From IMG/VR virus record IMGVR_UViG_2541047877_000009: 29,737 bases of DNA. One strand, 5' to 3'. The notes beneath the pieces are model-generated. The model had not been told where the DNA came from and searched no databases. It saw only the letters and a list, made by a program, of their open reading frames with translations. A program made the translations under genes and the position numbers. Every line of letters starts with the position of its first letter. Position 1 is the first letter of the stretch. Positions 1 to 9,048 of this stretch are shown in pieces. This DNA is from a virus (lineage: Duplodnaviria; Heunggongvirae; Uroviricota; Caudoviricetes).

Positions 1-981
1 TTATAACGTCACTCCGCCTTTTAGTGGATTCAGAGCGACGGCATTTTGCAGATAGTCAGGCGCAAGGTGTGCATAGGCCATCGTCTGCTGAATGCTCGCA
101 TGTCCCAGAATCTGTTGCAGTGCGATTATATTGCCCCCATTCATCATGAAATGGCTTGCGAATGTATGCCGCAGGATGTGGGTTGCCTGATTGGGTGGTA
201 TATCAGGTTTCACTCTGCGTAAAATCCCGCAAAATTTCTCATAATCAACTTTGAATAATTTGGCGCTGGCCTCCTCTTTAACTTTTTTCTCCAGTTCCTC
301 AGAAATCGGCACGGTTCGCTTTTTACCGTTTTTGGTTTTCAGGAAGGTAACCCTGCAATTTGTAATCTGTGCTGGTTTTAGCGTGGCAACTTCCGTCCAT
401 CTTCCTCCAGTGCTCAGACATAAAAGCGCGACAAGTAAGTCATCACCAGCCAAAACATTTAACAGTTTTTCGATTTCTGCTTTTTCCAGGAACGTCATTT
501 CAGGGTTGGCCTCCGCCAGTGGCGGCAGTCCGTGAATTGGGTGTTGCCCGGAAAATTCATCCAATTGAATTAATTTTGTGAACATGCCGGATAATCTGTA
601 CATGTCACGGTTTATCGTTGCGGCACTGATACCATCACGTAGTCGCATGGAACGATAATCCATCAAAGCCCTTTTACTCATCCTGCTCACTGGTATATCA
701 CCTATGCCGCTGATGGTTTTGAGTAGATGATTAAACTCTTTTGTTCCATGCTCGTGGTTTTGCCCGTGATATTTCCACCAGATGTCCAGCAACTCACTCA
801 AAGTCCGGCGGTCTGCTCGCTGGCCTCCCCATTCTTTCTGACTGGCATTGGCGATTGTGTATCGCTCAAATGCTAGTGCTTCAGCTTTTCTTTCGAATTT
901 CCTGCGGATGCGTTTTCCGTCGCGACCGCGAGGTCTAATGTCCACTTCATAGCGACCATCATCGAGCTTCTTAATTGCCAT
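1..981 (-). CDS. int: Tyrosine site-specific integrase (P2 Int-like). ORF track gives 1..1011; the second ATG at 981 is preferred because GGAGGG sits about 7 nt upstream.
   Basis: 336-codon ORF on minus strand; N-terminus MAIKKLDDGRYEVDIRP and C-terminal HxLRHTFASH...Y region typical of P2-family tyrosine recombinases; first gene of the prophage, adjacent to the repressor gene. Confidence 0.9.
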   Translation of the reverse strand: MAIKKLDDGRYEVDIRPRGRDGKRIRRKFERKAEALAFERYTIANASQKEWGGQRADRRTLSELLDIWWKYHGQNHEHGTKEFNHLLKTISGIGDIPVSRMSKRALMDYRSMRLRDGISAATINRDMYRLSGMFTKLIQLDEFSGQHPIHGLPPLAEANPEMTFLEKAEIEKLLNVLAGDDLLVALLCLSTGGRWTEVATLKPAQITNCRVTFLKTKNGKKRTVPISEELEKKVKEEASAKLFKVDYEKFCGILRRVKPDIPPNQATHILRHTFASHFMMNGGNIIALQQILGHASIQQTMAYAHLAPDYLQNAVALNPLKGGVTL

Positions 982-1050
982 AAGAAAGCCCTCCGGCGCT
1001 GTATTCACCATCTTGGTAGCAAATGGTGAAAATGTAATCTTTATATAGAG

Positions 1051-1344
1051 TTAGCCAATCCTTTTCGCGGAGTGGTTGGACTCTGTTGACTCTGGCCCAA
1101 TGTGCGCGAGAGCCGGTGCGATTTGTCCTGCGTCCGGCGCGGTTTTATCTGTCATAAGCCATAGAGCATATTTTTGGAATGTGGGATGCATAGTGATTTT
1201 TAGCAAAGCTGTGCCACCGGGTTCAAAGTTTCCTCCTTCATATTTTTTAAGTGTGCTTAGCGGTAACTCTATGATTTCACAGAATTTTGATTGGCTTAGC
1301 CCTTCAGCCTCACGCAAGGCCTTAATCTTTTCGCTTAATTTCAT
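1051..1344 (-). CDS. C: Immunity repressor, P2 C-like (HTH XRE-type)
   Basis: 97-aa minus-strand ORF, N-terminal HTH (SEKIKALREAEGLSQSKFCEI), C-terminal ...GQIAPALAH... as I recall for P2 C; lies upstream of int on the same strand and divergent from cox. Confidence 0.8.
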   Translation of the reverse strand: MKLSEKIKALREAEGLSQSKFCEIIELPLSTLKKYEGGNFEPGGTALLKITMHPTFQKYALWLMTDKTAPDAGQIAPALAHIGPESTESNHSAKRIG

Positions 1345-1465
1345 TTGACATGGTGCCTATATAGGGACTAAATTCCCTCAAAACTGGAACCTATATAGGT
1401 TCCATTGATTTGAGAATAAACCAGCGTCTAAACGGTTTTGAGTGGTTTAGAAAGAGCTGGATCCT
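1345..1465. promoter_or_regulatory. C/cox lysis-lysogeny switch region (divergent early promoters and operators)
   Basis: 121-bp intergenic region between divergent C and cox. TTGACA at 1345..1350; two copies of the palindromic decamer CCTATATAGG at 1356..1365 and 1390..1399, the second inside a perfect 18-bp palindrome GGAACCTATATAGGTTCC (1386..1403); a further inverted repeat AGGGA-N6-TCCCT at 1363..1378. Confidence 0.5.
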
Positions 1466-1480
1466 ATGAGGGTACCATAT

Positions 1481-1753
1481 ATGGACGCTGAAAATTATGT
1501 GATTCAGTATCCGCTTGATGCGGTTCATGTGGATAAATTTGCTGATTTATTAGGGAAGCCAAAGACAGCCGTCAGTGAAATGGTGAAGGCAAATAAATTA
1601 CCAATTATTGAATTGCGTGATCCTTGCAAACCGAAGGCTCGTGCCGGTGAAAAATGGGTTTTCATTCCTGAGTTTAATCGCGCTGTACGTGAGGCGTTTT
1701 ATAACCGACCGGTTGAACAGCGTGATGCATGGCTTTTGTGGATGGGGTTGTGA
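1481..1753 (+). CDS. cox: Cox-like excisionase / transcriptional switch protein. ORF track start 1466; ATG at 1481 preferred because GAGGG lies 7 nt upstream.
   Basis: About 90 aa; C-terminal ...RDAWLLWMGL resembles the P2 Cox C-terminus as I recall it; first gene of the rightward early operon, opposite C. Confidence 0.75.
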   Translation: MDAENYVIQYPLDAVHVDKFADLLGKPKTAVSEMVKANKLPIIELRDPCKPKARAGEKWVFIPEFNRAVREAFYNRPVEQRDAWLLWMGL

Positions 1754-1755
1754 TT

Positions 1756-1926
1756 ATGAATGAGCCGCGTTGTATTGCTCAGTTATTGCGTAACGAAAGC
1801 CCCAGGGCGATTGACTTCACCATCACCCACGGTAAGGGGCGTAAGGGAATCATTATCCGCACCAAAAAACAGAGTCCGTTAAAGAAGGCTCTGACCTTTC
1901 TGAAAAGCCGGAGGGTCTGGAAATGA
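1756..1926 (+). CDS. Hypothetical early protein (position of P2 orf78)
   Basis: Small ORF whose ATG overlaps the cox stop (TGATTATG), in operon context between cox and B. Start inferred as MNEPRC. Confidence 0.45.
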   Translation: MNEPRCIAQLLRNESPRAIDFTITHGKGRKGIIIRTKKQSPLKKALTFLKSRRVWK

Positions 1927-2423
1927 CAGTGATGACGCTCAATCTCGTCGAAAAACAGCCAGCAGCTATGCGCCGGATAATTGGTAAGCATCTTGCCGTC
2001 CCTCGTTGGCAGGATACATGTGATTATTATAATCAGATGATGGAGCGCGAACGGCTAACAGTTTGCTTTCATGCGCAGTTAAAACAACGTCACGCAACGA
2101 TGCGTTTTGAAGAAATGAACGACGTCGAACGTGAACGGCTGGTTTGTGCAATTGATGAATTGCGTGGGGCATTCTCAAAACGCCGTCAGGTTGGCGCAAG
2201 TGAGTATGCATATATTAGTTTTTTAACAGTCAGTCAGCGTCGTACTTTATTTATGCATGCCGGATTGACTGAAAAAGAATTCAATCAGCCATACTGGCGA
2301 ATTAATGAAGAGTCATGTTACTGGCGTGATGCTTTATTCCGTGCATTACGTGAACTATTCAGCCTGTTTGAGTATGCACCGACAATTCTGACGTCGGTAA
2401 AACCAGAGCAATATCTGCATTAA
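1923..2423 (+). CDS. B: Replication protein B (P2 gpB-like, helicase-loader role)
   Basis: 166-aa ORF, the length I recall for P2 B; GGAGGG SD upstream; position between cox and the orf80-83 cluster. Confidence 0.8.
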   Translation: MTVMTLNLVEKQPAAMRRIIGKHLAVPRWQDTCDYYNQMMERERLTVCFHAQLKQRHATMRFEEMNDVERERLVCAIDELRGAFSKRRQVGASEYAYISFLTVSQRRTLFMHAGLTEKEFNQPYWRINEESCYWRDALFRALRELFSLFEYAPTILTSVKPEQYLH

Positions 2424-2486
2424 GTAATTAACCAGAGTTTTTAACGCACTTAATTGTGCGGGGCTTCTTTTTGCCTGGAGAAAGTC

Positions 2487-2711
2487 ATGCATACAGTTTC
2501 TGAAAATCAGTGCGGTAAATACGCATTACTGCTGCAACAGGCCAGAACCGAAGCACAGGCCGACGCTGCGACGCGTTTTTCTTCTCATCTTGACGCCATG
2601 ATTCGCCACATCACAAAGGCGGAGTTATCCCGTGTGGAGATAGTCGAGCTGCTCAGTCAGGAGTCGGAAAAATTTCACAATATCGGATTGTCTCGCGGGG
2701 AGGTACTTTGA
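2487..2711 (+). CDS. Hypothetical early protein (P2 orf80 position)
   Basis: ORF in the early operon; GGAG SD before ATG at 2487 (ORF track start 2454). Confidence 0.5.
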
Positions 2712-3013
2712 TGTCCTGTTCTCATTCAGTTGTATTACTGAATAACGCCTTAAAAATCGCCGTTATGGAAAATGGTGATTTGTCTCTTATTCAACTTTGT
2801 CTTGATAAAGAAAAACGCGACATAACTGAATCTGTTATCGCGATTTATCAGAATGAATTAAACCTCCTGTCTGATGTGGTCAATTTACTTGTTAAACGCG
2901 CTGTGTTCCACAAGCAAATCTCCTCCGTGGATGAACTGACGAAATTAACGACAGAAATCGCCAGCTATTGCGCTGATGAATTTAAGAAACTGAACGACAA
3001 ATGGAGCTGGTAA
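2711..3013 (+). CDS. Hypothetical early protein (P2 orf81 position)
   Basis: 100-aa ORF, start overlaps upstream stop (TTGATG), operon context. Confidence 0.5.
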   Translation: MSCSHSVVLLNNALKIAVMENGDLSLIQLCLDKEKRDITESVIAIYQNELNLLSDVVNLLVKRAVFHKQISSVDELTKLTTEIASYCADEFKKLNDKWSW

Positions 3014-3237
3014 TGCCGGACAACGTAGATTTTATTCAGGAACAACAGGCTGAATTACTGGAGCGCCAGATTAACGCGGCAAGGGGGAAACATTGCGGTG
3101 TTTCTGCGCTGGTTTGCGAAGAGTGTGACGCGCCAATACCTGCTGCCCGTCGTGCGGCTTATCCGTCAGCCACGCGTTGTGTTTCCTGTCAGTCAGTCTT
3201 TGAAGCAAAAAACAAGCATTACCGGAGAATGGCATGA
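3013..3237 (+). CDS. TraR/DksA-family C4 zinc-finger protein (P2 orf82 position)
   Basis: Two CxxC pairs (CEECDAP ... CVSCQ) in a roughly 74-aa protein; GGAG SD before ATG at 3013. Confidence 0.65.
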   Translation: MPDNVDFIQEQQAELLERQINAARGKHCGVSALVCEECDAPIPAARRAAYPSATRCVSCQSVFEAKNKHYRRMA

Positions 3238-3509
3238 GTATTCGTATCGAAATTGGCGAACGTTATGTCGTTACCAGTGACAGCTTTCAGTTTATTCTCC
3301 ACGAGAAAAAGAGAGCGGAAAGCGGTAAAAACGCCGGTCAGGAATGGCTGGCGGTGGTTGGTTATTACCCGAAATTAAGCCAGCTCGTTTCCGGCCTGAT
3401 GCATCACGATATTCTGACCGGAAGCGCAAAGTCTTTTGCTGATTTAAACGCGCAGGTTGAGCAACTCAGCAAGCGTTGCTCAGAGGCTTTTGGCTCATAT
3501 GGCCGTTAA
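3234..3509 (+). CDS. Hypothetical early protein (P2 orf83 position)
   Basis: 91-aa ORF with GGAGAA SD; overlaps the start of A. Confidence 0.5.
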   Translation: MSIRIEIGERYVVTSDSFQFILHEKKRAESGKNAGQEWLAVVGYYPKLSQLVSGLMHHDILTGSAKSFADLNAQVEQLSKRCSEAFGSYGR

Positions 3510-5784
3510 AGCCTCCGGGCGTTTTGTCCCTCCGTCAGCATTTGCCGCAGGCACCGGTAAGATGTTTACCGGTGCTTATGCATGGAACGCGCCACGCGAG
3601 GCTGTCGGGCGCGAAAGACCTCTTACACGTGATGAGATGCGTCAGGTGCAAGGTGTTTTATCCACGATTAACCGCCTGCCTTACTTTTTGCGCTCGCTGT
3701 TTACTTCACGCTATGACTACATCAGGCGCAATAAAAGCCCGGTGCACGGGTTTTATTTCCTCACATCCACTTTTCAGCGTCGTTTATGGCCGCGCATTGA
3801 GCGTGTGAATCAGCGCCATGAAATGAACACCGACGCGTCGATGCTGTTTCTGGCTGAGCGTGACCACTATGCGCGCCTGCCGGGAATGAATGACAAGGAG
3901 CTGAAAAAGTTTGCCGCCCGTATCTCATCGCAGCTTTTCATGATGTATGAGGAACTCAGCGATGCCTGGGTGGATGCGCATGGAGAAAAAGAATCGCTGT
4001 TTACGGATGAGGCGCAGGCTCACCTCTATGGTTATATTGCTGGCGCTGCACGTGCTTTCAATATTTCCCCTCTCTACTGGAAAAAATACCGTAAAGGGCA
4101 GATGACCACGAGGCAGGCATATTCTGCCATTGCCCGTCTGTTTAACGATGAGTGGTGGACTCATCAGCTTAAAGGCCAGCGTATGCGCTGGCATGAGGCG
4201 TTACTGATTGCTGTCGGGGAGGTCAATAAAGACCGTTCTCCTTATGCCAGTAAACATGCCATTCGTGATGTACGTGCACGCCGCCAGGCAAATCTGGAAT
4301 TTCTTAAATCGTGTGACCTTGAAAACAGGGAAACAGGCGAGCGCATCGACCTTATCAGTAAGGTGATGGGCAGTATTTCTAATCCTGAAATTCGCCGGAT
4401 GGAGCTGATGAACACCATTGCCGGTATTGAGCGTTACGCCGCCGCAGAGGGTGATGTGGGGATGTTTATCACGCTGACCGCGCCGTCAAAGTATCACCCG
4501 ACACGTCAGGTCAGAAAAGGCGAAAGTAAAACCGTCCAGCTAAATCACGGCTGGAACGATGAGGCATTTAATCCAAAGGATGCGCAGCGTTATCTCTGCC
4601 GTATCTGGAGCCTGATGCGCACGGCATTCAAGGATAATGATTTACAGGCCTACGGTTTGCGTGTCGTCGAGCCACACCACGACGGAACGCCGCACTGGCA
4701 TATGATGCTTTTTTGTAATCCACGCCAGCGTAACCAGATTATTGAAATCATGCGTCGCTACGCGCTCAAAGAGGATGGAGACGAAAGAGGAGCCGCGCGA
4801 AACCGTTTTCAGGCAAAACATCTTAACCGGGGCGGTGCTGCGGGGTATATCGCGAAATACATCTCAAAAAACATCGATGGCTATGCACTGGATGGTCAGC
4901 TCGATAACGATACCGGCAGGCCGCTGAAAGATACTGCTGCGGCTGTTACCGCATGGGCGTCAACGTGGCGCATTCCGCAATTTAAAACGGTTGGTCTGCC
5001 GACAATGGGGGCTTACCGTGAACTACGCAAATTGCCTCGCGGCGTCAGCATTGCTGATGAGTTTGACGAGCGCGTCGAGGCTGCACGCGCCGCTGCAGAC
5101 AGTGGTGATTTTGCGCTGTATATCAGCGCGCAGGGTGGGGCAAATGTTCCGCGCGATTGTCAGACTGTCAGGGTCGCCCGTAGCCCGTCGGATGACGTTA
5201 ACGAGTACGAGGAAGAGGTCGAGAGAGTGGTCGGCATTTACGCGCCGCATCTCGGCGCGCGTCATATTCATATCACCAGAACGACGGACTGGCGCATTGT
5301 GCCGAAAGTTCCGGTCGTTGAGCCTTTGACTTTAAAAAGCGGCATCGCCGCGCCTCGGAGTCCTGTCAATAACTGTGGAAAGCTCACCGGTGGTGATACT
5401 TCGTTACCGGCTCCCACACCTCCTGAACACGCCGCAGCAGTGCTAAATCTGGTTGATGACGGTGTTATCGAATGGAATGACCCGGAGGTCGTGAGGACGC
5501 TCAGGGGTGCATTAAAACACGGCCTGAAAACACCAAATCGTCAGCAAAGAAACGGAAGTCCGTTAAAACCACATGAAATAGCACCGTCGGCCAGACTGAC
5601 CCGGTCGGAACGATTGCAAATTACCCGTATCCGCGTTGACCTTGCTCAGAACGGTATCAGGCCGCAGCGATGGGAGCTTGAGGCGCTGGCGCGTGGCGCG
5701 ACCGTAAATTATGACGGGAAAAAATTCACGTATCCGGTCGCTGATGAGTGGCCGGGATTCTCAACAGTAATGGCGCGGACATAA
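3499..5784 (+). CDS. A: Replication initiation endonuclease gpA (rolling-circle HUH nickase). ORF track start 3457; MAVKASGRF at 3499 preferred.
   Basis: About 761-aa ORF; HUH-type motif HWHMMLF and catalytic tyrosine motif YIAKYISK; N-terminus MAVKASGRFVPPSAF as I recall for P2 A. Confidence 0.9.
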   Translation: MAVKASGRFVPPSAFAAGTGKMFTGAYAWNAPREAVGRERPLTRDEMRQVQGVLSTINRLPYFLRSLFTSRYDYIRRNKSPVHGFYFLTSTFQRRLWPRIERVNQRHEMNTDASMLFLAERDHYARLPGMNDKELKKFAARISSQLFMMYEELSDAWVDAHGEKESLFTDEAQAHLYGYIAGAARAFNISPLYWKKYRKGQMTTRQAYSAIARLFNDEWWTHQLKGQRMRWHEALLIAVGEVNKDRSPYASKHAIRDVRARRQANLEFLKSCDLENRETGERIDLISKVMGSISNPEIRRMELMNTIAGIERYAAAEGDVGMFITLTAPSKYHPTRQVRKGESKTVQLNHGWNDEAFNPKDAQRYLCRIWSLMRTAFKDNDLQAYGLRVVEPHHDGTPHWHMMLFCNPRQRNQIIEIMRRYALKEDGDERGAARNRFQAKHLNRGGAAGYIAKYISKNIDGYALDGQLDNDTGRPLKDTAAAVTAWASTWRIPQFKTVGLPTMGAYRELRKLPRGVSIADEFDERVEAARAAADSGDFALYISAQGGANVPRDCQTVRVARSPSDDVNEYEEEVERVVGIYAPHLGARHIHITRTTDWRIVPKVPVVEPLTLKSGIAAPRSPVNNCGKLTGGDTSLPAPTPPEHAAAVLNLVDDGVIEWNDPEVVRTLRGALKHGLKTPNRQQRNGSPLKPHEIAPSARLTRSERLQITRIRVDLAQNGIRPQRWELEALARGATVNYDGKKFTYPVADEWPGFSTVMART

Positions 5785-6236
5785 TGACAAAGATTCACAA
5801 AGTAAAGCTGCACGCAAAATATTTCGACCTTGTGCTGGAAGGAAAGAAACGCGCAGAGTTTCGGAAAAATGACCGTAATTATGAGCGCGGAGACACGTTG
5901 ATTTTGCATGAATGGGGGCAGGGTGTGTATACGGGGCGAAAGGTTGAAGCCCGGATAACAGATGTTACTGACCTGTCAGACTGGCTGGAAGATTATGTCT
6001 TGCTAAGTATTGAGCTGCTTAATACAGGCGCATATGAGATTGTGAACTGGAAAGAACTTAGTGAGCGTGGTCTGGTATTCAGAATTAATCATGAAATTAT
6101 GCATCAGCTCGGCCTTGCTGTTATGTATGAACCAGAGACGGGGATGTCTGGCGGGGCAATGGTTGCCACGGATGGAGCATGGAACTATTCAGATGAACAG
6201 ATTGAGCGTGCAAAGCAAAACGGGTGGCTTGGATAA
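5784..6236 (+). CDS. DUF3850/ASCH-like (PUA-fold) domain protein with an unassigned roughly 70-aa C-terminal extension
   Basis: ATG overlaps the A stop (TAATG). N-terminus MTKIHKVKLHAKYFDLVLEGKKRAEFRKNDRNYERGDTLILHEW fits the DUF3850/ASCH pattern from recall; first gene of the cargo region. Confidence 0.55.
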   Translation: MTKIHKVKLHAKYFDLVLEGKKRAEFRKNDRNYERGDTLILHEWGQGVYTGRKVEARITDVTDLSDWLEDYVLLSIELLNTGAYEIVNWKELSERGLVFRINHEIMHQLGLAVMYEPETGMSGGAMVATDGAWNYSDEQIERAKQNGWLG

Positions 6237-6439
6237 TGCACAGAATACCAGGCGAGATACCGCAACATAACACTAAAAATATCAAGCTGATGGCTATTGT
6301 TCACCGTCTACAGCAGATTATGGTCAACGAAAATCTGACGCCCGACGAGTTGGTCGGGTGTGCCGAAATAGTCCGGGATAATTACGTGCGGTTTAACGAT
6401 ATAGAACAGTCTAAAATTGCACTGCTACCACGTTGTTGA
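6236..6439 (+). CDS. Small hypothetical protein (cargo region)
   Basis: About 67-aa ORF starting MHRIPGE... immediately after the preceding stop; no recognisable motif; could be spurious. Confidence 0.3.
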   Translation: MHRIPGEIPQHNTKNIKLMAIVHRLQQIMVNENLTPDELVGCAEIVRDNYVRFNDIEQSKIALLPRC

Positions 6440-6765
6440 TAGAAAACCCCAGCAGTACTGAAACATGCTTCCAGTGCTGCTGGAGGGAACAACGAACAGC
6501 GAGAGGTGGTAGTTGGCCATCATTTGAGTATCAGCATATGATTGGATTTATAACGGTTGGAAAGATTAATGTTGGTGAACTAATAAATTACAAATATTCA
6601 CAAGAAGATCTTATGTTACTAACATGAGTTTATGTGTAATATAGCTGTACATACCAATATCCGCTGTACCTTTGTTTTTATTTGGTTTGTCAGGTGTCAC
6701 AGGTATGGTTGGCGTATGAGAATGGTTTATTTAAATTAAATATTGATTAAGGTTGAAAGAATGTC

Positions 6766-7662
6766 ATGAATAAAAGTAAAGCAATCTCAAGAATAGAGAG
6801 AGTGTTGAGAAGATTAAAGGATGGGAGTTTCACTGATAGTGATATTGATGTTCTTTTTGTTACGGCCCGTGAGTTGCCGAGTGCGCCCAAGTGTATTTTT
6901 GAAATTGGGAGTTTTGTTGCCCATAATCATCGGAGAGATCAAGGCGAGATAAAGGATATCATGCTGAGGAATCATTTGTTATTAAGTTTAAAATTTGGAC
7001 GCGATAAGCATGCTGTTAAACCAGAGTTAAATGAATACCCGAAATACTTACCTACATTAATCAGACTGCAATTAAGAATGTTCAGTGATGAGTTTTTAAA
7101 GGAGAAGTTAAACTTAAAGGGGGGGCAGGTAATTACAGCGAGGAAGAAGCTTAATAACAAGAAATCGTATATTGTTAATGATGGTGTTTGTAAGTTAACA
7201 CCAGAAATTGGTTCCAATGAAGGGCGAATGATTAATGAAGCTTTGTCGTTACTCAATTGTTCTGACGCAATTAAGTTCGACTCTTTATTTAATGAGCTGA
7301 AAATATTGCTTCGGAAGGAGATTTCAGGGGTGGACTTGATGCCGCTTGATAATAACAGGAGAGCAATAGCAGGCATCTTACTGTGTTTGTTGAATAATAT
7401 TGATTTTTCTCTGATGCCTGAAGTCAAAGCAAAAACAGTCCTTAGTCTTAATGATGCAGATAAATCTGCAAATGTTTATGGTCAATATTATATAACACAT
7501 GAAAAAGAGCCATTCACCGACGTGGCTATCATGAGCCCAGTGTTTCAGTCGGGGTATGATGTTAGTGACCTTTTTGATGAGCATGTGACAAATGAAAATA
7601 TCGTAAATGGGGATGTCGAATTTAGTTTTGATTTGGGGAAAATAGTTGTGTCGAAATCATAG
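6766..7662 (+). CDS. AT-rich hypothetical protein, 298 aa, in the P2 accessory hotspot between A and cos; candidate accessory or anti-phage gene of unknown mechanism
   Basis: Long uninterrupted ORF in sequence that is visibly AT-rich by eye compared with flanking phage genes (not computed); preceded by a 330-bp AT-rich non-coding stretch; occupies the locus where P2 carries tin/old; no Walker A, HUH or other motif found by eye. Confidence 0.75.
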   Translation: MNKSKAISRIERVLRRLKDGSFTDSDIDVLFVTARELPSAPKCIFEIGSFVAHNHRRDQGEIKDIMLRNHLLLSLKFGRDKHAVKPELNEYPKYLPTLIRLQLRMFSDEFLKEKLNLKGGQVITARKKLNNKKSYIVNDGVCKLTPEIGSNEGRMINEALSLLNCSDAIKFDSLFNELKILLRKEISGVDLMPLDNNRRAIAGILLCLLNNIDFSLMPEVKAKTVLSLNDADKSANVYGQYYITHEKEPFTDVAIMSPVFQSGYDVSDLFDEHVTNENIVNGDVEFSFDLGKIVVSKS

Positions 7663-7825
7663 TTTAGACCCAAACGAGCACGTTCCTAATTTCCGTTCAA
7701 TACATGCATTTAGTGCATGATTTTGCATGCGGCAGCGATCGTTTTTTATTGTTTATAATCGCCTGTATTGACGATGTTTTGATGTGTTATTGCAACTGCA
7801 TTAAAAGCGCTCCATGAAGCGGGCG

Positions 7826-7844
7826 GGCGAGGCGGGGAAAGCAC
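7826..7844. other. cos: cos site: 19-nt cohesive-end sequence GGCGAGGCGGGGAAAGCAC
   Basis: Exact match to the P2/P4 cohesive-end sequence as I recall it, located in the expected position between the accessory locus and the 3' end of Q. Confidence 0.6.
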
Positions 7845-7985
7845 TGCGCGCTGGCGGTGGTGCTGATTTTATTTTTTCAGCGTCTGAGCGCGTCGTGATG
7901 GCGTTTAGATTGTTAGCCGGGGCGTTGGTGTGTCTGCGGGCTATTTTGTGCGGTGGTGAGCGTGTGAGGGCGTGATGGCGGGTTG

Positions 7986-8013: not shown

Positions 8014-9048
8014 TCAGCCGTTGTCAGTGTCCAGTGAGTAGTTTTTAAAGCGGATGACCTCCTGACCGAGCCAGCCGTTTATCTCGCGGATCCTGTCCTG
8101 TAACGGGATAAGCTCATTGCGGACAAAGACCTTTGCCACTTTCTCAATATCACCCAGCGACCCGACGTTCTCCGGCTTGCCGCCCATCAACTGAAAGGGG
8201 ATGCGGTGCGCGTCCAGCAGGTCAGCGGCGCTGGCTTTTTTGATATTAAAAAAATCGTCCTTCGTTGCCACTTCACTGAGCGGGATAATTTTAATGCCGT
8301 CGGCTTTCCCCTGCGGGGCATAGAGAAACAGATTTTTAAAGTTGTTGCGGCCTTTCGACTTGACCATGTTTTTGCGAAGCATTTCGATATCGTTGCGATC
8401 CTGCACGGCATCGGTGACGTACATGATGTATCCGGCATGTGCGCCATTTTCGTAATACTTGCGGCGGAACAGTGTGGCCGATTCATTCAGCCAGGCAGAG
8501 TTAAGGGCGCTGAGATATTCCGGCAGGCCGTACAGCTCCTGATTAATATCGGGCTCCAGCAGGTGAAATACTGAGCCGGGCGTGAAAGGTGTCGGCTCGT
8601 TGAAGGACGGCACCCACCAGTAAACATCCTCCTCCACGCCACGGCGGGTATATTTTGCCGGTGAGGTTTCCAGTCTGATGACCTTACCGGTGGTGCTGTA
8701 ACGCTTTTCCAGAAACGCATTACCGAACACCAGAAAATCCAGCACAAAGCGGCTGAAATCCTGTTGCGAAAGCCACGGATGCGGGATAAATGTCGAGGCC
8801 AGAATATTGCGTTTAACGTAAATCGGTGAGCTGTGATGCACGGCAGCACGCAGGCTTTTCGCCAGACCGGTAAAGCTGACCGGCGGCTCATACCATCTGC
8901 CGTTACTGATGCACTCGACGTAATCCAGAATGTCACGGCGGTCGAGTACCGGCACCGGCTCACCAAAGGTGAATGCCTCCATTTTCGGGGCGCTGGCGGT
9001 CATTGTTTTTGCCGCAGGTTGCGGTGTTTTCCCTTTTTTCTTGCTCAT
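8014..9048 (-). CDS. Q: Portal protein gpQ
   Basis: 344-aa ORF, the length I recall for P2 Q; start overlaps the stop of P; position adjacent to cos. Confidence 0.9.
   Translation of the reverse strand: MSKKKGKTPQPAAKTMTASAPKMEAFTFGEPVPVLDRRDILDYVECISNGRWYEPPVSFTGLAKSLRAAVHHSSPIYVKRNILASTFIPHPWLSQQDFSRFVLDFLVFGNAFLEKRYSTTGKVIRLETSPAKYTRRGVEEDVYWWVPSFNEPTPFTPGSVFHLLEPDINQELYGLPEYLSALNSAWLNESATLFRRKYYENGAHAGYIMYVTDAVQDRNDIEMLRKNMVKSKGRNNFKNLFLYAPQGKADGIKIIPLSEVATKDDFFNIKKASAADLLDAHRIPFQLMGGKPENVGSLGDIEKVAKVFVRNELIPLQDRIREINGWLGQEVIRFKNYSLDTDNG

What the first reader, a model, noticed from the sequence alone, without database searches (positions are those of the whole stretch)
6440..7700. AT-rich 298-aa orphan gene in the P2 tin/old accessory hotspot: candidate undescribed accessory or anti-phage gene
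In P2 the locus between replication gene A and cos carries the non-essential superinfection-exclusion genes tin and old, and in P2-like prophages this position is a known variable hotspot for anti-phage cargo. Here the same position holds a single long ORF (6766..7662) that is visibly more AT-rich than every flanking phage gene, implying separate acquisition. It has its own 330-bp AT-rich upstream region and is followed by non-coding DNA containing cos. I find no recognisable catalytic motif in it (no Walker A, HUH, HEPN-like Rx4-6H, PD-(D/E)xK or TIR signature by eye), and it does not resemble Old or Tin as I recall them. Position, compositional signature and lack of identifiable family make it the strongest candidate in the window for a previously undescribed single-gene system.
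Basis: partly seen in the sequence, partly recalled or inferred. Interest (0 to 1): 0.85.

Follow-up and report, generated by a model that had tools for sequence, protein, structure and literature searches.

The report
Untested cargo gene, P2 defence hotspot
A real, AT-rich 298-aa gene sits in the known anti-phage cargo slot of a P2-like E. coli prophage; its protein family is widespread, matches no known domain or solved fold, and has already been listed (but never tested) as a predicted defence gene, so it is a reasonable but unproven candidate for a new single-gene phage defence.

Summary
ORF 6766..7662 (+, 298 aa) lies between replication gene A and cos (19-mer at 7826-7844) of a P2-like prophage. 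It is the only strongly AT-rich stretch of the window (GC 0.37 versus 0.53-0.58).

It is not an orphan. There are 34 clusters in Enterobacterales and 419 remote representatives across several phyla. They share the signature E-x3-F-V-A-H-N-x2-R-D-x-G and a two-domain architecture predicted with high confidence (pLDDT 91 and 94.5).

It is not undescribed. Rousset et al. 2022 list it as P2-hotspot system #75. DefensePredictor (2026) scores it just above its strict cutoff (log-odds 4.64). Neither study tested it.

A single-gene sensor-effector defence is the best reading (about 0.45). Function and mechanism remain inferred. Expression in the lysogen is unproven.

The parts
6766..7662 (+). Cargo gene: 298-aa protein (exact sequence = WP_021549690.1; family of WP_001043197.1, PHROG 29586), stop codon included
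   Evidence: ORF call. PHROG 29586 matches full length at 702 bits. Exact-sequence look-up. Intact 296-302 aa orthologs in 8 loci, omega about 0.11.
6766..7395 (+). Codes for the N-terminal helical part (residues 1-210). It is basic (residues 1-130, pI 10.0) and is the most conserved part of the family.
   Evidence: AF2 model with pLDDT 90.7. Same element order in a remote member, pLDDT 94.5. Conservation and pI.
6901..6945 (+). Codes for the family signature loop E46-x3-F50-V-A52-H53-N54-x2-R57-D58-x-G60, between helices 3 and 4. It is a candidate active or binding site.
   Evidence: A52, H53, G60 (and R35) are invariant, and E46 and R57 nearly invariant, in 49 sequences down to 15% identity. 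The motif is present in all plasmid, prophage and islet members checked. This is the lowest-pLDDT block of the model (64).
7048..7155 (+). Codes for three short helices (residues 95-130, '...KLNLKGGQVITARKKL...') that weakly resemble an XRE-type helix-turn-helix.
7396..7659 (+). Codes for the C-terminal beta-rich part (residues 211-298). It is acidic (pI 4.3) and is the most variable part of the family.
   Evidence: AF2 strands 213-295. Mean pairwise identity 0.43 versus 0.77 for residues 24-60. dN is 2-3 times that of the N-terminal part.
6632..6765 (+). Cargo-specific AT-rich upstream non-coding DNA. It must hold the ribosome-binding site, and a promoter if the gene has its own.
   Evidence: Backbone homology to P22H4 ends at 6631, and cross-genus homology starts at 6752-6765. 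Only weak promoter-like matches were found, no more than in shuffles. No significant RNA structure.
6440..6631 (+). Junction DNA shared with some other P2-like phages carrying different cargo. The 64-aa ORF at 6433-6627 has no family support.
   Evidence: blastn breakpoints at 6513 (vB_YpM_50) and 6631 (P22H4). No Pfam, PHROG or PADLOC hit for the 64-aa ORF.
6447..6486 (+). Strong hairpin directly after the stop of the upstream small gene. It has no U-tract. It is a backbone element marking the end of the upstream transcription unit.
   Evidence: MFE -24.3 kcal/mol, z -4.8, 0 of 200 shuffles fold as well. An analogous hairpin sequence is seen in the Klebsiella, Cronobacter and Salmonella loci.
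7663..7784 (+). Downstream non-coding DNA up to where homology with other E. coli P2-like phages resumes. It includes a TGCAT-rich element also present near the right end of P2.
   Evidence: Homology resumes at 7785-7797. The element is conserved in family-bearing loci and in P2. Its hairpin is not significant (z -0.46).
7826..7844 (.). cos: the P2 19-nt cohesive-end sequence.
   Evidence: Exact match to the cosR 19-mer annotated in NC_001895.
5784..6439 (+). Upstream neighbours in the variable slot: a DUF3850/ASCH + DUF7415 protein (5784-6236) and a 67-aa protein of PHROG 11386 (6236-6439).
   Evidence: Pfam and PHROG hits. RefSeq annotation of the identical locus. Listed together with the cargo gene as one arrangement in Rousset Table S5A.
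3499..5784 (+). Left anchor of the hotspot: replication endonuclease gene A.
   Evidence: RefSeq annotation mapped onto the window. ORF listing.
8014..9048 (-). Right anchor of the hotspot: portal gene Q.
   Evidence: ORF listing and RefSeq annotation.

Best explanation
The gene is horizontally acquired, stand-alone cargo of the P2 gpA-gpQ hotspot. It most likely acts as a single-protein anti-phage (superinfection-exclusion or abortive-infection type) factor for the lysogen.

Proposed working model (inferred, not shown). The conserved, basic, helical N-terminal part carries the invariant E/H-N/R-D loop and an HTH-like trio of helices. It would be the effector that binds or cuts nucleic acid. 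The fast-evolving, acidic, beta-rich C-terminal part would be the sensor (or autoinhibitory lid) that recognises a component of an infecting phage and releases the effector.

Shown: the location, foreign composition, autonomy, purifying selection, family breadth, two-domain architecture, conservation gradient, and absence from all known families.

Inferred: the defence role, the division of labour between the domains, the nucleic-acid target, and expression in the lysogen.
For: Location. The gene is in the slot that holds tin/old in P2. Rousset et al. 2022 mapped 169 systems in that slot and validated several as defences.

Foreign origin. GC and GC3 are 0.37, against 0.53-0.72 in the backbone.

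Cargo behaviour. The same slot is used in Klebsiella, Salmonella, Cronobacter, Dickeya and an unnamed enterobacterial genome. The gene also occurs in other prophage types next to umuDC and tail or lysis genes, as an opposite-strand insert in a tail module, on a 5.3-kb and an 11-kb plasmid, and in islets. No partner gene is conserved, and no known ncRNA or repeat is present.

Association with defence and mobile-element genes. The gene lies close to DUF4238 on two unrelated contigs: directly adjacent in L040 and about 2.6 kb downstream in L007. Flanking genes elsewhere include integrases, a resolvase, Schlafen/AlbA_2, an HNH/PtuB-like protein, and BrnT/BrnA toxin-antitoxin modules.

Independent machine-learning prediction. 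DefensePredictor gives mean log-odds 4.64 (strict cutoff 4) and the label 'Predicted novel defense gene'.

Base rates from the literature. 45% of 94 predicted units validated. Three of eight extra P2-hotspot systems were active. Six of eight unknown P4 loci were active.

Architecture typical of sensor-effector proteins. The conserved N-part carries an invariant polar loop and the C-part is variable.
Against: No experiment exists. The ML score is only just above the strict threshold (minimum 3.29 across instances).

No catalytic domain is recognisable, so the effector idea rests on a conserved loop and on charge alone.

Neighbourhoods of remote members are mostly housekeeping genes and ORFans. 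Defence genes are a minority, so the defence-island signal is weak.

The gene points the same way as the early operon. It has only weak promoter-like sites, no more than expected by chance. Expression in the lysogen, which a prophage defence needs, is therefore unproven.

P2 hotspots also carry non-defence cargo such as partition systems and toxins. In the 2026 survey only 15% (32% with context) of unknown P2 proteins gave an ML defence signal.
Confidence: 0.45

Rival explanations
1. The gene serves the phage's own lytic development rather than the lysogen, for example as an anti-defence or host-takeover factor. It would be transcribed by read-through from the early operon (cox-B-A-orf91...) after induction or infection.
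For: The gene has the same orientation as the early operon, unlike P2 tin/old, which have their own leftward promoter. No promoter stands out upstream. The hairpin at 6447-6486 lacks a U-tract, so it need not terminate transcription. The C-terminal part is acidic (pI 4.3), as in some DNA-mimic anti-restriction proteins (the comparison is from my own knowledge).
Against: Family members also occur where there is no phage lytic programme: a 5.3-kb plasmid, an 11-kb plasmid and chromosomal islets among housekeeping genes. In one prophage the gene is on the opposite strand within the tail module, which is typical of a moron with its own expression. DefensePredictor scores it as defensive. No sequenced virion genome in INPHARED encodes a member.
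Confidence: 0.2
2. It is a nucleic-acid-binding regulator (HTH-like) that changes host or competitor gene expression, for example a repressor-like exclusion factor or a lysogenic-conversion regulator. It would have no enzymatic effector activity.
Confidence: 0.12
3. It is a selfish stabilisation or toxin-like module that favours retention of the mobile element (prophage or plasmid) rather than protecting against phages.
For: It is the main cargo of a 5.3-kb plasmid, and on an 11-kb plasmid it sits among toxin-antitoxin modules. P2 hotspots often carry plasmid-partition genes.
Against: No conserved small partner gene that could be an antitoxin. No known RNA antitoxin or repeats. A lone toxin with no antidote is not expected to persist intact with omega about 0.1 across genera (the reasoning is inference).
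Confidence: 0.08
4. It is a decaying or non-functional hitch-hiking ORF.
For: AT-rich DNA gives long ORFs less often than GC-rich DNA, so this is not a composition artefact. There is no positive evidence for this rival.
Against: Orthologs are intact at 296-302 aa in eight loci from five genera, with dN 0.175, dS 1.63 and omega 0.11 between E. coli and Klebsiella. There are 419 remote representatives with an invariant motif. Two independent high-confidence structure predictions agree.
Confidence: 0.02

Closest known systems
P2 Old (OLD-family ATPase + TOPRIM nuclease) and P2 Tin
   Same: They occupy the same genomic slot between gene A and cos. They are AT-rich, non-essential lysogenic-conversion cargo that blocks other phages (annotation of NC_001895).
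   Different: No sequence similarity: best BLASTP E is 0.22 (Old) and 0.36 (Tin). No ATPase or TOPRIM domain. Opposite orientation: old-tin is transcribed leftward from a promoter next to cos. One gene instead of two.
Rousset et al. 2022 P2-hotspot catalogue, system #75 (PMC9122126, Table S5B)
   Same: This is the same protein (3 substitutions in the listed representative) in the same arrangement, 'DUF3850/ASCH + hypothetical + hypothetical'.
   Different: The catalogue gives only a sequence and a count (53 occurrences, no Pfam, no signal peptide or TM). The protein was not among the cloned and tested systems: its sequence and motif are absent from Table S2.
DefensePredictor 'uncharacterized clusters' (PMC13092281, Table S10)
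   Same: WP_001043197.1 is listed as a predicted novel defence gene with no HHblits or Foldseek hit. This agrees with my negative searches.
   Different: It is a prediction only. The accession is absent from the tables of tested units. Its score of 4.64 is near the bottom of a list whose top scores exceed 15.
Single-gene hotspot defences such as DUF4238 (validated by Rousset et al. 2022)
   Same: Both are stand-alone genes of about 250-350 aa carried in phage or satellite hotspots and in small islets. Family members lie near DUF4238 on two unrelated contigs.
   Different: No homology: no Pfam DUF4238 or PADLOC hit for any of 49 family members. Adjacency is association, not shared mechanism.
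HEPN-type abortive-infection RNases (Rx4-6H motif)
   Same: Both have a small helical effector with conserved Arg and His near a helix start, often fused to a variable sensor. That is how this protein could work.

Membership tests
P2-like gpA-gpQ hotspot cargo (Rousset et al. 2022) | Located between replication gene A and portal gene Q/cos of a P2-like prophage | tested here: met
   A 3499-5784, gene 6766-7662, cos 7826-7844, Q 8014-9048. Same slot in five other genera.
P2-like gpA-gpQ hotspot cargo (Rousset et al. 2022) | The content of the slot differs between otherwise closely related phages | tested here: met
   79 phage records match the flanks and none matches the gene. Breakpoints at 6004/6513/6631 and 7785-7797. 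P2, P22H4 and vB_YpM_50 carry other genes there.
P2-like gpA-gpQ hotspot cargo (Rousset et al. 2022) | Listed in the published catalogue of hotspot systems | tested here: met
   System #75, 53 occurrences, Table S5B. WP_001043197 appears in Table S5A.
Validated anti-phage defence system | Reduces plaquing of at least one phage when expressed in a sensitive host | not testable with these tools
   No experiment was found. The protein is absent from the tested sets of Rousset 2022 and DefensePredictor. No paper text holds the accession or the PHROG id.
Known defence families (PADLOC-DB v2.0.0) | Significant match to a defence-protein HMM | tested here: not met
   0 hits for the protein. 49 family members scanned gave one marginal Cas13b hit at E 0.0087.
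OLD-family nucleases (P2 Old) | ABC-type ATPase domain plus TOPRIM domain; sequence similarity to Old | tested here: not met
   BLASTP E 0.22. No Pfam domain.
Tin | Sequence similarity to P2 Tin | tested here: not met
   BLASTP E 0.36.
HEPN superfamily | Conserved R-x4-6-H motif in a four-helix bundle; match to HEPN profiles or structures | tested here: not met
XRE-type helix-turn-helix DNA-binding proteins | Five-helix HTH fold with a profile or structure match | tested here: inconclusive
PHROG 29586 | Full-length match to the PHROG profile | tested here: met
   E 1.1e-211, 702 bits, 1-298 of 298. The PHROG has no known function.
DefensePredictor 'predicted defensive' class | Log-odds above the strict cutoff of 4 | tested here: met
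   Read from Table S10: mean 4.64, sd 0.75, min 3.29, max 5.42. I did not recompute it.
Toxin-antitoxin or two-gene systems | A conserved adjacent partner gene or RNA | tested here: not met
   No neighbour family is shared across phyla. The 243-aa upstream gene of 186-like loci is backbone and is absent here. No Rfam family or repeats.

The most novel reading that the evidence does not exclude
The protein is the founding, experimentally untouched member of a widespread family of single-protein immune factors found in Gamma-, Beta- and Alphaproteobacteria, Nitrospirota and Bacteroidota, on prophages, plasmids and islets. Its fold has no relative among solved structures. Its invariant E...AHN..RD.G loop would be a new kind of effector site, switched on by a fast-evolving C-terminal beta domain that senses phage.
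Probability: 0.25. Interest if true: 0.7.

Novelty: new member of a known kind. Interest (0 to 1): 0.45.

Why it matters
About a fifth of P2-like prophages carry no recognisable defence in this hotspot (PMC13586616), and this gene is one concrete example of that unexplained cargo. If it protects against phages, it would add a defence family whose mechanism cannot be guessed from any known domain or solved fold. The family is already spread over several bacterial phyla and several kinds of mobile element.

The work here makes the experiment well defined. It provides the exact module boundaries, five invariant residues to mutate, a clear two-domain hypothesis for swaps, and a panel of natural variants at 42-99% identity. 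If the gene does not protect, it marks a non-defence function that also rides in defence hotspots. That matters for the common practice of calling hotspot cargo defensive by position alone.

Tried and rejected
Family libraries. Pfam, NCBIfam and PADLOC gave nothing for the protein. Pfam and PADLOC also gave nothing for 49 family members.

Phage genomes. tblastn against 50,697 phage genomes found nothing, either with the window protein or with the Acinetobacter prophage member.

Locus retrieval. The search for related loci with the remote-member alignment failed because no stretch was conserved enough. I replaced it with a hand-made degenerate pattern for the signature, which gave 17 true members out of 18 hits.

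Partner gene. I considered the 243/183-aa upstream ORF in the Salmonella, Cronobacter and Klebsiella loci and rejected it. It is 93% identical between backbones whose cargo genes differ (dN 0.36). It is frameshifted in Klebsiella. It is absent from the window, Dickeya and L031/L032.

ncRNA or repeat partner. None found. The 'mir-15' Rfam hit (23.8 bits against a gathering score of 57.3) is just the hairpin.

Post-ORF hairpin as terminator. Not significant (z -0.46), and the element is P2 backbone.

HEPN, Fic and HNH readings of the loop. I considered these by eye and rejected them, because the conserved residue order does not fit and no profile or fold hit supports them.

Literature. No paper text holds the accession or the PHROG id. 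The supplements of the 2026 P2/P4 survey and of the metagenomic-selection study are not held. The H-NS preprint could not be opened.
Full report
**What is there**

The ORF 6766..7662 (+, ATG, 298 aa) exists as described. The window is a P2-like prophage. An identical locus in E. coli 13P477T is annotated, in order, as integrase, C-type repressor, cox, early genes, replication endonuclease A, a DUF3850 protein, a 67-aa protein, this 298-aa hypothetical protein, then portal Q and terminase P on the other strand. The P2 cohesive-end 19-mer lies at 7826-7844. So the gene is the last one before cos, in the slot that holds tin and old in P2.

The gene's GC is 0.368 and its GC3 is 0.368. For comparison, A is 0.533/0.541, Q is 0.530/0.652 and P is 0.576/0.717. 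This is the only place in the 29.7-kb window where an 897-bp window drops below 0.42 GC.

**Module boundaries**

Homology to other E. coli and Yersinia P2-like phages stops at 6004 (P2), 6513 (vB_YpM_50) or 6631 (P22H4). It resumes at 7785-7797. Those phages carry other genes in the slot.

Homology to family-bearing prophages of other genera starts only 0-14 nt before the ATG and runs through cos into Q. The cargo-specific DNA is therefore at most 6632-7784.

It contains a strong hairpin at 6447-6486 directly after the upstream stop codon (-24.3 kcal/mol, z -4.8, no U-tract). A similar hairpin is recognisable in 186-like loci. Promoter-like sites upstream are weak and no more frequent than in shuffled sequence. 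The gene points the same way as the early operon, unlike P2 old-tin, which has its own leftward promoter next to cos. Whether it is expressed in the lysogen is therefore open.

**Not an orphan**

The protein matches PHROG 29586 (unknown function) end to end. Its exact sequence is WP_021549690.1, and the commonest allele was seen on 986 contigs. 25 of 5,426 complete E. coli genomes carry the locus at 99% identity or more.

34 clusters at 42-99% identity occur in Escherichia, Citrobacter, Klebsiella, Salmonella, Cronobacter, Serratia and Dickeya, and all are unnamed.

A profile search of 1.84 billion representatives found 419 relatives at E of 1e-3 or better, and 126 at 1e-10 or better. Most are 290-330 aa.

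Across 49 sequences down to 15% identity, R35, A52, H53 and G60 are invariant, and E46, R57, P92 and L208 are nearly so. This gives the signature E-x3-F-V-A-H-N-x2-R-[DN]-x-G.

A degenerate DNA pattern for that signature found 18 sites in one-genome-per-species GTDB. 17 of them encode full-length members, in Marinobacter, Alteromonas, Vibrio, Pseudomonas, Colwellia, Cellvibrionaceae, Ketobacter, Trinickia, a Rhizobiales genome, three Nitrospirales, Marinifilum and Runella. All remote members are also unnamed and lack any Pfam domain.

**No known relative**

- Pfam, NCBIfam and PADLOC give nothing for the protein.
- Pfam and PADLOC also give nothing for the 49 family members.
- A family profile finds nothing among PDB sequences (best E 0.47).
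- AlphaFold2 gives a confident model (pLDDT 90.7, pTM 0.84): a helical N-part (1-210) and a beta-rich C-part (213-295).
- A member with about 20% identity gives the same order of elements with pLDDT 94.5 and pTM 0.90, so the architecture is a family property.
- Foldseek finds nothing in the PDB or in BFVD. The AlphaFold-database library was not available.
- There is no similarity to Tin or Old.

**How it behaves as a gene**

Eight orthologs from five genera are intact at 296-302 aa. Between E. coli and Klebsiella, dN is 0.175, dS is 1.63 and omega is 0.11.

Conservation falls from the N-terminus to the C-terminus. Residues 24-60 have mean pairwise identity 0.77 in the close family and 0.47 in the wide family. 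Residues 211-265 have 0.43 and 0.19. dN is two to three times higher in the C-part.

Residues 1-130 are basic (pI 10.0) and residues 211-298 are acidic (pI 4.3). There is no transmembrane segment, in agreement with Rousset's table.

**Where it lives**

- In six enterobacterial contexts besides the window, it occupies the A-Q slot of P2- or 186-like prophages.
- In Klebsiella quasipneumoniae and Acinetobacter baumannii, it lies next to SRAP-umuD-umuC and the tail-fibre or lysis genes of other prophages.
- In one metagenomic prophage it is an opposite-strand insert between baseplate genes.
- In Pseudomonas it is a lone islet among housekeeping genes.
- On two unrelated contigs it lies next to, or close to, DUF4238, a defence validated by Rousset et al..
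- It is the main cargo of a 5.3-kb Psychrobacter plasmid.
- On an 11-kb Acinetobacter plasmid it sits among toxin-antitoxin modules.

No neighbour family is shared across phyla. A 243-aa membrane protein upstream in 186-like loci belongs to the backbone and is absent here. No Rfam family or repeat is present.

Flanking genes of remote members include integrases, a resolvase, Schlafen/AlbA_2, an HNH/PtuB-like protein and a Dcm methylase. Most flanking genes, however, are housekeeping genes or ORFans. The picture is autonomous cargo of several kinds of mobile element, with only a modest association with defence genes.

**What is already in the literature**

Rousset et al. 2022 (PMC9122126) analysed 18,150 instances of this hotspot. 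They list WP_001043197 in the arrangement 'DUF3850/ASCH + hypothetical + hypothetical' and as system #75: no Pfam, 53 occurrences, no signal peptide or TM. Neither its sequence nor its motif is among their tested systems.

DefensePredictor (PMC13092281) lists WP_001043197.1 among 'uncharacterized clusters'. The mean log-odds is 4.64 (sd 0.75, min 3.29, max 5.42; strict cutoff 4). It has no HHblits or Foldseek hit, carries the label 'Predicted novel defense gene', and is absent from the tables of tested units.

The 2026 P2/P4 survey (PMC13586616) reports that 19% of P2 lack identifiable defence genes. It tested unknown loci only from P4, and 6 of 8 were active.

No paper text holds the accession or the PHROG id. 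So the gene is catalogued and predicted, but not tested or explained.

**Interpretation**

The best-supported reading is a stand-alone anti-phage factor carried as hotspot cargo (confidence about 0.45). My working model assigns the conserved basic N-part, with its invariant polar loop and HTH-like helices, the role of a nucleic-acid-directed effector. It assigns the variable acidic beta C-part the role of sensor or lid. That division is an inference from conservation, charge and analogy with other single-protein defences. Nothing here shows an activity.

The main rival is a phage-serving function expressed by read-through of the early operon. It draws on the gene's orientation and the lack of a clear promoter. 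It fits poorly with members on plasmids and in islets.

A purely regulatory DNA-binding role and a stabilisation or toxin role are less likely. A dead ORF is excluded by the selection data.

**Verdict**

The hotspot logic is established. The gene is already in two published lists. The family is large.

What remains interesting is that a family this widespread, with a confidently predicted structure, matches nothing known. It also offers a short list of invariant residues that make a mechanism directly testable.

Noticed in passing
window 3499 (ATG of gene A); one search hits H35, H37-H41, H46, H55: In 8 of the 25 complete E. coli genomes that carry this locus, the match starts at record position 2942. 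So base 1 of the chromosome record is exactly the ATG of P2 gene A (window 3499, MAVKASGRFV...). This looks like an artefact of start-fixing software taking the phage replication endonuclease for a chromosomal or plasmid replication gene.
   Followed up: partly
window 6447-6486: A 14-bp-stem hairpin lies directly after the stop of the 67-aa gene (-24.3 kcal/mol, z -4.8, 0 of 200 shuffles as stable). It has no U-tract. A similar hairpin follows the upstream gene in the Klebsiella, Cronobacter and Salmonella 186-like loci. It may end or stabilise the upstream transcript. Its function is unknown.
   Followed up: partly
window 5784-6236: The orf91-like gene is a fusion of DUF3850/ASCH with a C-terminal DUF7415 (151 aa as annotated, against 109 aa for P2 Orf91). 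Homology to P2 breaks at 6004, inside this gene, so its C-terminal half is itself part of the variable region.
   Followed up: no
L034 (E. coli EC9952) 2771-3739; also H37 (strain 23CRST029): An IS903B copy is inserted between the intact cargo gene and cos in two clinical isolates. The ORF is untouched, but the insertion lies in the DNA leading into cos and could affect packaging of that prophage.
   Followed up: partly
L028 (K. quasipneumoniae) 1-5396 and L037 (A. baumannii) 3119-6393: In two unrelated prophages the family gene lies just downstream of the same trio: SRAP, a Peptidase_S24 (UmuD-like) and a Y-family polymerase (UmuC-like). This could be chance co-location in a cargo region, or a hint of a link with the SOS response.
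   Followed up: no
L027 5132-5863, L029 5142-5873, L003 about 7137-7894: A 243-aa protein with an N-terminal membrane anchor and no Pfam domain lies between the DinI/Tum-like gene and the cargo gene in 186-like prophages. It is 93% identical between Cronobacter and Salmonella and frameshifted in Klebsiella. Its function is unknown.
   Followed up: partly
protein P0096 (6,164 aa): A giant repetitive protein matches profile positions 249-287 (the C-terminal strands '...LFDEHVT.E.I..GD.EF...') 35 times. This is probably a motif-level resemblance to adhesin-type beta repeats rather than homology, but it hints that the C-part could be Ig-like.
   Followed up: no
L001 / one search hit H31 (E. coli 13P477T): This genome has two places matching the query, so it may carry two P2-like prophages (or a duplicated segment) with the same cargo.
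   Followed up: no
L042 (A. pittii plasmid pAR3676_5) 1046-2765: On the 11-kb plasmid, a DUF4747 protein and an adjacent hypothetical protein sit beside BrnT/BrnA and the family gene. This small accessory region looks like a cluster of stress or defence modules.
   Followed up: no
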